Notes under the pieces: model-generated
Databases searched by the model: none
What the model saw: only the letters and a program-made list of their open reading frames with translations
Told to the model about the DNA's origin: nothing
Source: a virus
Taxonomy: Duplodnaviria > Caudoviricetes
Length of the DNA stretch: 64,000 nucleotides
IMG/VR virus record: IMGVR_UViG_3300031784_000006
Reading direction: 5' to 3' (one strand)
Shown here: positions 62,250 through 62,357 of the stretch, in pieces
Layout: each line of letters begins with the position of its first letter
Numbering within the stretch: position 1 is the first letter of the stretch
Made by a program: the position numbers and the translations under genes

Positions 62250-62319
62250 AGGAAGTTACTGGACTTACACCAGTTCAAAGGGCATTGTCTGCTTGTCTCG
62301 TTTCTTTGACTTAACTTCC
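62250..62319 (-). ncRNA. tRNA-like RNA (acceptor plus T-like arm, no D/anticodon arms)
   Basis: GGAAGTT/AACTTCC, ACTGG-TGTAAGT-CCAGT, TCAAAG/CTTTGA. Confidence 0.55.
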
Positions 62320-62357
62320 TTTGGCGTCTACCTAGTTAATCGCTAGGGACTACCAAG

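What the first reader, a model, noticed from the sequence alone, without database searches (positions are those of the whole stretch)
62250..62356. tRNA-like RNA with acceptor and T-like arm but no D or anticodon arm, preceded by a long hairpin
Seen: GGAAGUU/AACUUCC-U acceptor, ACUGG-UGUAAGU-CCAGU arm, and a third stem UCAAAG/CUUUGA closing a 23-nt purine-rich loop with two GACAA repeats. Just upstream is a hairpin UUGG..GUC.CCUAG/CUAGG..GAC.CCAA (62321-62356). Both sit between tRNA-Gly and tRNA-Asn. The topology recalls the tRNA-like domains of tmRNA and Y RNA. Function is unknown (inference).
Basis: partly seen in the sequence, partly recalled or inferred. Interest (0 to 1): 0.6.

Follow-up and report, generated by a model that had tools for sequence, protein, structure and literature searches.

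The report
Non-decoding tRNA look-alike in cyanophage
Inside its tRNA gene cluster this cyanobacterial virus carries a 70-base tRNA-shaped RNA whose codon-reading arm is replaced by a tiny hairpin with a fixed GACAA loop. It is a diverged member of a large, unannotated family found in cyanophages, so it is probably a working non-decoding RNA, not a broken tRNA, but its partner and its expression are unknown.

Summary
The acceptor stem, the T-like arm and the upstream hairpin are all present on the minus strand (62319-62250 and 62356-62321), between tRNA-Gly and tRNA-Asn.

Comparison of 111 distinct relatives shows a cloverleaf: an acceptor stem, a D stem GUC/GAC that is invariant, a T arm, and a miniature anticodon arm of 3-4 covarying pairs capped by an invariant G-A-(C/U)-A-A pentaloop. 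The relatives come from about 260 IMG/VR stretches and six cultured cyanophages, including S-PM2. GACAA is the loop of phage P22 boxB, which folds like a GNRA tetraloop.

The window's copy ("type A") is a near-invariant sublineage with altered D and T loops. It never co-occurs with the canonical "type B" form in the arrays sampled.

The family is absent from Rfam 15. It is left unannotated in the four GenBank records that do annotate tRNAs in this region; ARAGORN miscalls type B copies as tRNA-His(AUG). The upstream hairpin is a separate, partly covarying trailer of tRNA-Gly.

The most likely reading is a stable, non-decoding tRNA-derived RNA, cut out by tRNA-processing enzymes, that presents its loop to an unknown partner. 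I could obtain no expression data. This scan noted the same family before on another genome (e1-5679895).

The parts
62250..62319 (-). The whole 70-nt tRNA-like RNA ('type A' member of the GAYAA-pentaloop family): G1 at 62319, last acceptor base at 62251, discriminator-like U at 62250
   Evidence: the MFE fold is a cloverleaf; 104.7 bits with model R1; 59.6 bits with family model R2, against 36 bits or less for true tRNAs.
62313..62319 (-). Acceptor stem, 5' strand GGAAGUU; pairs with 62251-62257
   Evidence: three pairs changed on both sides in L051, plus G-U variants; all 7 pairs covary across the family.
62251..62257 (-). Acceptor stem, 3' strand AACUUCC
62295..62310 (-). Reduced D arm: stem GUC (62310-62308) with GAC (62297-62295), and a 10-nt loop AAAGAAACGA that lacks the usual GG
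   Evidence: the stem is invariant in all 111 sequences and is predicted by RNAalifold; pair probability 0.42 on this sequence alone.
62282..62292 (-). Miniature anticodon arm: GCA (62292-62290), pentaloop GACAA (62289-62285), UGC (62284-62282)
   Evidence: the stem pairs covary (AU/GC/CG; CG/UA/GC; GC/CG). The loop G-A-Y-A-A is invariant except at the middle base; pair probability 0.87.
62275..62281 (-). Variable-region analogue CCUUUGA; the most variable part of type A
   Evidence: the variable columns lie in the CUUUG stretch, 62280-62276.
62258..62274 (-). T arm ACUGG-UGUAAGU-CCAGU. The loop is non-canonical but keeps U54, A58 and the G53-C61 pair
   Evidence: invariant within type A; the T stem covaries across the family.
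62321..62356 (-). Separate spacer hairpin: the 3' trailer of tRNA-Gly, not part of the tRNA-like RNA
   Evidence: fold; 13 pairs, 4 of them compensatory, across 13 variants; the hairpin and the element each occur without the other.
62357..62429 (-). tRNA-Gly(UCC), the upstream neighbour
62172..62244 (-). tRNA-Asn(GUU), the downstream neighbour
62833..62861 (-). Sigma-70-like promoter TTGACT-N17-TACTAT at the head of this part of the array. Further promoter-like sites lie at 62684-62656 and 62585-62556. No terminator-like site was found in the stretch scanned (61900-62950)
   Evidence: these are consensus matches only.

Best explanation
The element is a gene for a small, stable, non-decoding RNA descended from a tRNA. 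It is transcribed as part of the phage tRNA operon. It is probably released like its neighbours: RNase P at G62319, a 3' endonuclease or exonuclease near U62250, then CCA addition.

It folds into a cloverleaf whose anticodon arm has shrunk to a 3-5 bp stem capped by a GACAA pentaloop. In phage P22 boxB this loop folds like a GNRA tetraloop with the C flipped out. That loop, held at the end of a tRNA-shaped scaffold, is the working part. It most likely docks on a protein or on an RNA receptor supplied by the host or by the phage core genome.

The window's copy belongs to a near-invariant sublineage ('type A') with a remodelled elbow: the D loop has no GG and the T loop is UGUAAGU. In some freshwater or estuarine cyanomyophage arrays it stands in for the canonical 'type B' form.

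Shown: the fold, family membership through the anticodon module, modular placement in arrays, and a loop incompatible with decoding.
Inferred: transcription, processing, the L-shape, the docking function and the partner.
For: 1. Structure. In alignment A2 (111 distinct sequences), 94.3% of cells are paired, against 30-47% when partners are slid. Fifteen of 20 pairs change on both sides (400 cells). The covariation score is 0.526 against 0.156 in shuffles, with 0 of 500 shuffles reaching it. RNAalifold finds the same four helices on its own. The MFE fold of the window's sequence is that cloverleaf.
2. Mini arm. The stems GCA/UGC, CCC/GGG, GUG/CAC, GCG/CGC, CUC/GAG and CCU/AGG all close G-A-(C/U)-A-A.
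3. Loop. The only variable loop base is the one looped out in the P22 boxB GACAA structure, PDB 1A4T (PMC12550061).
4. It is not a decoder. The loop has 5 nt, with no U33. ARAGORN and the Rfam tRNA model do not call the window copy. The discriminator varies between U, C and A.
5. It is under selection or spreading. The element is about 98% identical to the window across contigs whose flanking tRNA-Gly and tRNA-Asn are 55-68% identical.
6. It behaves as a tRNA-like unit. It always lies in tRNA arrays. It starts exactly at GGAAG after different upstream modules.
7. Link between types A and B. Eighteen of 20 bases are identical over columns 23-42, with the same D stem. The best non-self hit of the A-only model is the S-CREM1 type B copy. 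The two types are mutually exclusive in about 1.1 Mb of sampled arrays.
8. It is accessory and mobile. An ORF-less insert of about 325 bp carrying a type B copy is present in one S-RIM8 isolate and absent from 14 or more isolates with 100% identical flanks.
9. Precedent. T4 RNAC and RNAD lie in the T4 tRNA region (PMC3014915).
Against: - There are no expression or end-mapping data.
- Within type A the T arm, the D stem and the mini arm never vary, so their support comes from type B. A model trained on type B alone scores type A at 25-27 bits, below ordinary tRNAs at up to 39 bits. Whole-molecule homology of A and B is therefore not shown, and a module transfer is possible.
- The invariance of type A is partly an effect of how the set was found, by exact 19- and 22-mers. 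It could reflect recent spread and not constraint.
- The GNRA-like fold and the docking role are inferred from a loop sequence. No partner was identified.
Confidence: 0.62

Rival explanations
1. It is a decoy or sponge against a host tRNA-directed defence, or against a tRNA-binding toxin or enzyme. The tRNA-shaped body attracts the factor, and the missing anticodon loop makes the RNA uncuttable or inert. This is a specific version of the trans-acting reading.
For: It is accessory and mobile, shown by the presence/absence polymorphism within S-RIM8. Type A swapped both elbow loops while keeping the mini arm, which is what an escape variant would look like. In S-CREM1 an abiF-motif RNA and a manA RNA also sit between tRNAs, so these arrays do host non-tRNA RNAs.
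Against: No defence system or target was identified. A decoy role does not explain why the pentaloop and the bulged A are so strictly conserved. The discriminator and acceptor sequences drift freely.
Confidence: 0.15
2. It is only a processing punctuation mark: a cis-acting RNase P/RNase Z substrate that separates neighbouring RNAs. It would work like mascRNA at the MALAT1 3' end, or like tRNA punctuation in mitochondria, with no function after release.
For: It keeps the acceptor/T-arm minihelix, which is the part RNase P and RNase Z need. It sits between other structured RNAs and tRNAs.
Against: Neighbouring tRNAs already provide such sites at spacings of 2-40 nt. A pure processing site would not need an invariant GAYAA loop, a covarying mini stem and an invariant D stem across marine and freshwater phages.
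Confidence: 0.12
3. It is a decaying tRNA pseudogene.
For: It has tRNA length and a cloverleaf outline. Standard tRNA finders fail on it or miscall it.
Against: Compensatory changes maintain all the helices in 111 distinct sequences. The element is far more conserved than the functional tRNAs beside it. It is present in about 260 viral stretches and six cultured phages.
Confidence: 0.03
4. It is a real decoding tRNA with an unusual, contracted or rearranged anticodon loop. ARAGORN's call of tRNA-His(AUG) for type B is one such reading.
For: ARAGORN assigns type B an anticodon. The type B body has canonical D and T arms.
Against: The pair that closes the loop covaries strongly (AU 46, GC 46, CG 15), so the loop has 5 nt. 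There is no U33 or purine 37 in any register. The middle loop base varies C/U, which would change any anticodon. The discriminator is not conserved. The Rfam tRNA model gives no hit at E <= 1.
Confidence: 0.03
5. One reading: a tmRNA- or Y-RNA-like tRNA-like domain made of an acceptor stem, a T arm and one stem closing a 23-nt purine-rich loop, working together with the upstream hairpin.
For: The stems can be drawn, and the fold is only 1.2 kcal/mol above the MFE.
Against: The third stem is broken without compensation in four variant types. There are no tmRNA or Y-RNA hits. The hairpin is separable from the element.
Confidence: 0.05

Closest known systems
Phage T4 stable RNAs: species 1 (rnaC) and species 2 (rnaD)
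   Same: They are small non-tRNA RNAs encoded inside a T4-type phage tRNA cluster, and their function is unknown (PMC3014915; T4 annotation). rnaC ends in a canonical T arm plus a stem formed by its two ends.
   Different: They are 139 and 119 nt long, with large inserted hairpins. They have no GAYAA mini arm. Family model R2 matches only the rnaC T arm, at 15 bits. They are an analogue, not a homologue.
Phage P22 boxB (nut site) RNA hairpin
   Same: The pentaloop GACAA is identical. In P22 it folds like a GNRA tetraloop with the C looped out and is read by an arginine-rich peptide (PMC12550061). In this family only that middle base varies (C/U).
   Different: boxB is a free-standing 5-bp hairpin in an mRNA leader. 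It acts in cis with boxA, N and Nus factors in antitermination. Here the loop caps the anticodon arm of a tRNA-shaped RNA. I did not search for an N-like protein. The likeness covers the loop only.
Viral and cellular tRNA-like small RNAs cut out by tRNA enzymes (murine gammaherpesvirus 68 vtRNAs, vertebrate mascRNA); from my own knowledge, not checked here
   Same: They are tRNA-shaped, non-decoding, released by RNase P/RNase Z and receive CCA. They use the tRNA body as a processing and stability scaffold.
   Different: They are eukaryotic, unrelated in sequence, and have no conserved GNRA-like pentaloop. Processing of the cyanophage RNA is untested.
tmRNA tRNA-like domain and bacterial Y RNA (YrlA) tRNA-like module
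   Same: They are RNAs that mimic the acceptor/T-arm half of a tRNA (YrlA: PMC4201824, listed, not read).
   Different: tmRNA needs a G3-U70 pair, a tag reading frame and pseudoknots. YrlA needs a Ro60-binding stem made by the two ends. None of these is present (the sequence itself).
Canonical phage tRNAs (Rfam RF00005)
   Same: The gene location, length, acceptor stem, D stem and T stem are shared. Type B relatives also share the D and T loops.
   Different: The anticodon loop has 5 nt and not 7, with no U33 or R37. There is no Rfam tRNA hit and no ARAGORN call for the window copy.

Membership tests
Canonical tRNA (RF00005) | A score at or above the Rfam gathering threshold (29 bits), or a call by a tRNA finder | tested here: not met
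   There is no tRNA hit over 62250-62319 even at E <= 10. ARAGORN makes no call there.
Canonical tRNA (RF00005) | A 5-bp anticodon stem with a 7-nt loop carrying U33 and purine 37 | tested here: not met
   The arm is a 3-bp stem (up to 5 bp with a bulge) and a 5-nt loop GACAA. The closing pair covaries.
Canonical tRNA (RF00005) | A 7-bp acceptor stem stacked on a 5-bp T stem with a 7-nt loop | tested here: met
GAYAA-pentaloop tRNA-like RNAs of cyanomyophages (unnamed; defined here and in note e1-5679895) | A mini anticodon arm: 3 covarying pairs closing G-A-Y-A-A, placed after the D stem | tested here: met
   GCA-GACAA-UGC at 62292-62282. It is identical to the type B1 arm, with 18 of 20 bases identical over columns 23-42.
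GAYAA-pentaloop tRNA-like RNAs of cyanomyophages | An invariant D stem G10-U11-C12 / G23-A24-C25 | tested here: met
   It is invariant in all 111 sequences, including type A.
GAYAA-pentaloop tRNA-like RNAs of cyanomyophages | A canonical elbow (GG in the D loop, T loop UUCGAUU) and a bulged A after the mini stem | tested here: not met
   In type A the D loop is AAAGAAWCGA, the T loop is UGUAAGU, and C replaces the bulged A. I therefore file it as a divergent sublineage.
GAYAA-pentaloop tRNA-like RNAs of cyanomyophages | A covariance-model score that separates members from ordinary tRNAs | tested here: inconclusive
   With R2, which was trained with type A included, the window scores 59.6 bits against 36 or less for tRNAs. 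With R3, trained on type B only, type A scores 25-27 bits, below tRNAs at up to 39. With R1, trained on type A only, the best non-self hit is the S-CREM1 type B copy at 16 bits, E = 0.12.
tmRNA | A call by ARAGORN or Rfam; a G3-U70 alanine identity pair; a tag reading frame with pseudoknots | tested here: not met
   No tmRNA is called. Pair 3:70 is A-U. In 70 nt there is no room for pseudoknots. Candidate frames are not conserved.
Bacterial Y RNA (YrlA) | A long stem formed by the 5' and 3' ends that carries the Ro60 site, with the tRNA-like module at the far end | tested here: not met
   The ends form a 7-bp acceptor stem only. There is no Rfam hit.
T4 rnaC / rnaD | Sequence and structure homology to the T4 RNAs | tested here: not met
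   R2 and R3 match only the rnaC T arm, at 15 bits.
Lambdoid nut-site boxB | A GNRA-like pentaloop on a hairpin, next to boxA, read by an N protein for antitermination | not tested
   Only the identity of the loop sequence (GACAA) was established. I made no search for boxA or for an N-like protein.

The most novel reading that the evidence does not exclude
The GAYAA-capped tRNA mimics are a widespread class of trans-acting phage RNAs. They would use a tRNA body to enter tRNA-handling machinery (the ribosome, RNase P, or a tRNA-directed defence or toxin). They would use a boxB-like, GNRA-type pentaloop to grip a specific host or phage factor. Type A would be an escape or host-shift variant whose elbow was rebuilt while the loop was kept.
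Probability: 0.25. Interest if true: 0.8.

Novelty: new variant of a known kind. Interest (0 to 1): 0.6.

Why it matters
Phage tRNA clusters are usually read as codon-usage tuning or, more recently, as a counter to defences that cut tRNAs. This family shows that T4-like cyanophages also keep a conserved tRNA-shaped RNA that cannot decode. It moves between genomes as a cassette without any ORF. The same loop serves as a protein-docking site in phage P22.

The family is missing from Rfam 15, and ARAGORN turns its type B copies into a spurious tRNA-His(AUG). Genome annotations therefore miss it or misname it.

Because cultured members exist (S-PM2, S-CREM1, S-RIM8 isolates with and without it), its expression, its partner and its effect on fitness can be tested directly. 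The result could also shed light on the old question of what T4's own non-tRNA RNAs in its tRNA cluster do.

Tried and rejected
- blastn of the 112-nt spacer against 50,697 GenBank phages gave no match. Type A is known only from uncultured contigs.
- megablast of the 3-kb surroundings matched tRNAs only.
- No whole genome is held for this window.
- A scan for type A copies with a different closing acceptor pair found only L051.
- The B-only covariance model did not separate type A from tRNAs. I therefore do not claim homology over the whole molecule.
- The scan of bacterial genomes gave one hit, an 802-nt low-coverage contig in a Flavobacteriaceae MAG. It carries the phage array itself, so I read it as a mis-binned phage fragment and not a host gene.
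- T4 rnaC and rnaD were tested as homologues and rejected.
- A tag-peptide (tmRNA-like) reading of the internal sequence was rejected, because the stop codon and the frame are not conserved among variants.
- A base-pairing "seed" role for the 23-nt loop was dropped once the region proved to be folded.
- The S-PM2 genome paper is not held. The 2023 survey of viral structured RNAs has no supplement held as text, so I cannot exclude that the motif is listed there.
- Literature searches found no description of the family.
- A weak Twister-sister hit (15.5 bits, E = 3.4) was treated as noise.

Full report
**Setting.** The window comes from a T4-like cyanophage. It holds wcaG and PhotoRC-II RNAs, a group I intron and a glutamine riboswitch. 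An array of tRNA genes lies on the minus strand. The finding lies in the 112-nt spacer between tRNA-Gly(UCC) at 62357-62429 and tRNA-Asn(GUU) at 62172-62244.

**Check of the observation.**
- Read on the minus strand, the spacer begins with a hairpin at 62356-62321.
- A 70-nt unit follows: GGAAGUU-AA-GUC-AAAGAAACGA-GAC-AA-GCA-GACAA-UGC-CCUUUGA-ACUGG-UGUAAGU-CCAGU-AACUUCC-U (62319-62250).
The whole spacer folds better than its shuffles (z = -3.24).
- The minimum-energy fold is different, at -16.5 kcal/mol. It is a cloverleaf with a 3-bp D stem and a small hairpin, GCA-GACAA-UGC.

**Relatives of the window's form ("type A").**
- No GenBank phage matches the spacer.
- Exact 19- and 22-mers from the element occur in at least 51 IMG/VR contigs.
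- In all of them the unit lies in a tRNA array, most often in the order Gly, hairpin, element, Asn.
- The unit is almost invariant: 54 of 69 columns never change, and mean identity to the window is 98%. The tRNA-Gly and tRNA-Asn beside it are only 55-68% identical to the window's. Part of this invariance reflects how the set was found.
They break that stem without compensation.
- One divergent copy, L051, changes three acceptor pairs on both sides and lacks the hairpin.
- In five contigs the unit follows a conserved leader directly, instead of tRNA-Gly plus hairpin. It starts at exactly the same G. It therefore behaves as a modular, tRNA-like gene.

**The wider family ("type B").**
- A model built from type A found a weak hit in phage S-CREM1, between tRNA-Met and tRNA-Leu.
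- That sequence is an unannotated 72-nt tRNA-shaped RNA with canonical D and T arms. Its anticodon slot reads GGCAGACAAUGCACUUGG, which shares the core GCAGACAAUGC with the window.
- Relatives are present in S-PM2, S-RIM8, S-RIM32, S-SZBM1 and DSL-LC03.
- Relatives are also present in 92 and then 120 further IMG/VR stretches.
- Across them the slot changes in a compensated way around a constant loop: GCA-GACAA-UGC, CCC-GACAA-GGG, GUG-GACAA-CAC, GCG-GACAA-CGC, CUC-GACAA-GAG and CCU-GACAA-AGG. A bulged A and one more covarying pair follow.

**Formal covariation test.**
- I aligned 111 distinct sequences: 11 of type A and 100 of type B.
- On the cloverleaf, 94.3% of cells pair, against 30-47% when the partners are slid.
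- Fifteen of 20 pairs change on both sides, in 400 cells. The covariation score is 0.526 against 0.156 in shuffles, and none of 500 shuffles reaches it.
- RNAalifold, given no structure, returns the same four helices.
- The D stem G10-U11-C12/G23-A24-C25 and the loop G-A-Y-A-A are invariant in all 111 sequences.

**How firmly type A belongs to the family.**
- Types A and B1 are identical at 18 of 20 positions over columns 23-42, which span the 3' strand of the D stem, the mini arm and the start of the variable region. They share the D stem.
- They occupy the same Leu-Gly-Asn-Val neighbourhood of the arrays.
- They never co-occur in about 1.1 Mb of sampled arrays.
- The acceptor stem, D loop and T loop of type A are unrelated to those of type B.
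- A model trained on type B alone scores type A at 25-27 bits, below ordinary tRNAs at up to 39 bits.
- I therefore claim homology of the anticodon-slot module and the D stem, and family membership as a divergent sublineage. I do not claim demonstrated homology over the whole molecule. Transfer of the module onto another scaffold is not excluded.

**What the loop suggests.** GACAA is the pentaloop of phage P22 boxB. In the solved complex with the N peptide (PDB 1A4T) it adopts a GNRA-like fold, and the looped-out C contacts the peptide (PMC12550061). In this family the only loop position that varies (C/U) is that same middle base. This fits a GNRA-type GA(N)AA fold, but it is inference from sequence alone.

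**It cannot decode.**
- The loop has five bases, and its closing pair covaries (AU 46, GC 46, CG 15).
- No register gives U33 and a purine at position 37.
- The discriminator drifts among U, C, A and G.
- The Rfam tRNA model reports nothing at E <= 1 for the two type B copies I scanned, S-CREM1 and S-RIM8, and nothing at E <= 10 for the window.
- ARAGORN forces type B into "tRNA-His (AUG)". This is a pitfall for annotation.

**The hairpin.** Thirteen variants give 13 predicted pairs, four of them with compensatory changes. The hairpin follows tRNA-Gly once without the element (L141), and the element occurs without it. It is a real but separate structure in the tRNA-Gly trailer. Its role is unknown; it may be a processing site.

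**Transcription context.** Sigma-70-like promoters lie on the array strand at 62861-62833, 62684-62656 and 62585-62556. No terminator-like site lies in the stretch scanned, 61900-62950. These are consensus matches only. I could obtain no RNA data.

**Mobility.**
- In S-RIM8 only isolate KX349286 has about 325 bp between tRNA-Thr and tRNA-Ala.
- At least 14 other isolates, with 100% identical flanks, have a 3-nt spacer there.
- The insert holds a type B element and a copy of the same leader module seen in the window.
- It has no credible ORF and no Rfam family.
- The RNA therefore travels without a dedicated protein. Any partner must be a host factor or a core phage factor.
- The only hit in 185,579 bacterial and archaeal species genomes is a mis-binned phage fragment.

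**Comparison with known systems.**
- The nearest precedent is T4's RNAC and RNAD. These are small RNAs of unknown role in the T4 tRNA region (PMC3014915). T4 rnaC also ends in a tRNA-like T arm. The family model matches only that arm, so it is an analogue and not a homologue.
- Membership of the tmRNA and Y-RNA families fails on their defining features.
- The family is not in Rfam 15. I found no paper describing it, but my searches cover open-access text only.
My analysis reached the same reading independently and adds the type A sublineage.

**Verdict.** The element is a real, selected, non-decoding, tRNA-derived RNA gene. Its function is unknown. The best-supported mechanism is a tRNA-processed scaffold that presents a GNRA-like pentaloop to a partner acting in trans.

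Noticed in passing
window 62768-62830 (- strand); L013, L019, L032, L039, L043 upstream of the element; L149:2655-2712: A conserved leader module of about 60 nt (GAUAGAGGGUAAG...CUGUUAUAUCCUU...CUUACUCCAUC; GGGUAAG can pair with CUUACUC). It precedes tRNA-Leu in the window, the type A element in five contigs, and tRNA-Ala inside the marine S-RIM8 insert. It may be a structured RNA or promoter-leader module of its own.
   Followed up: partly
L149:2385-2712 (S-RIM8 KX349286) versus L274 (KX349285): An insert of about 325 bp with no ORF, carrying a type B element. It is present in one S-RIM8 isolate and absent from at least 14 isolates with identical flanks. The annotators' locus tags skip _027 exactly where the element lies.
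   Followed up: yes
L052:6086-6300 and 6402-6438 (S-CREM1): A manA RNA (96.6 bits) and an abiF-motif RNA (52.2 bits) sit between tRNA genes of the same array that holds the type B element. Cyanophage tRNA arrays host several kinds of non-tRNA RNA.
   Followed up: partly
L052:5839-5910, L060, L064, L075, L117, L131: ARAGORN calls type B elements 'tRNA-His (AUG)'. This spurious tRNA is likely to enter automatic annotations and codon-usage analyses.
   Followed up: yes
window 62586-62643 (- strand): A 58-nt truncated tRNA-like sequence. It has a canonical T arm and an acceptor stem, scores 23.5 bits with the Rfam tRNA model (below threshold), and has a collapsed D/anticodon region. It is a second odd tRNA-like unit in the same array.
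   Followed up: no
window 62434-62585 (- strand): Four consecutive hairpins with unrelated stems and a shared ACCGCCA-type loop. A promoter-like site (62585-62556) lies within them. In S-RIM8 a GCCGCCA sequence lies directly upstream of the type B element (L149:2495-2501).
   Followed up: no
L273 (JALRAI010000177.1, Flavobacteriaceae MAG): An 802-nt low-coverage contig of a Flavobacteriaceae MAG is a cyanophage tRNA-array fragment (Leu-Gly-hairpin-element-Asn). It is most likely a binning contaminant.
   Followed up: yes
window 62072-62171 (- strand): The 100-nt spacer between tRNA-Asn and tRNA-Val also holds hairpins, for example CCUAAG-UUUG-CUUAGG, and a GGGGA...CCCC stem. I did not analyse it.
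   Followed up: no
L008, L014, L027, L028, L034, L038, L044, L001, L047, L049: In these type A contigs no tRNA-Asn is called downstream of the element. A gap of about 80-190 nt precedes tRNA-Val (larger in L049) and may hold another uncalled RNA.
   Followed up: no
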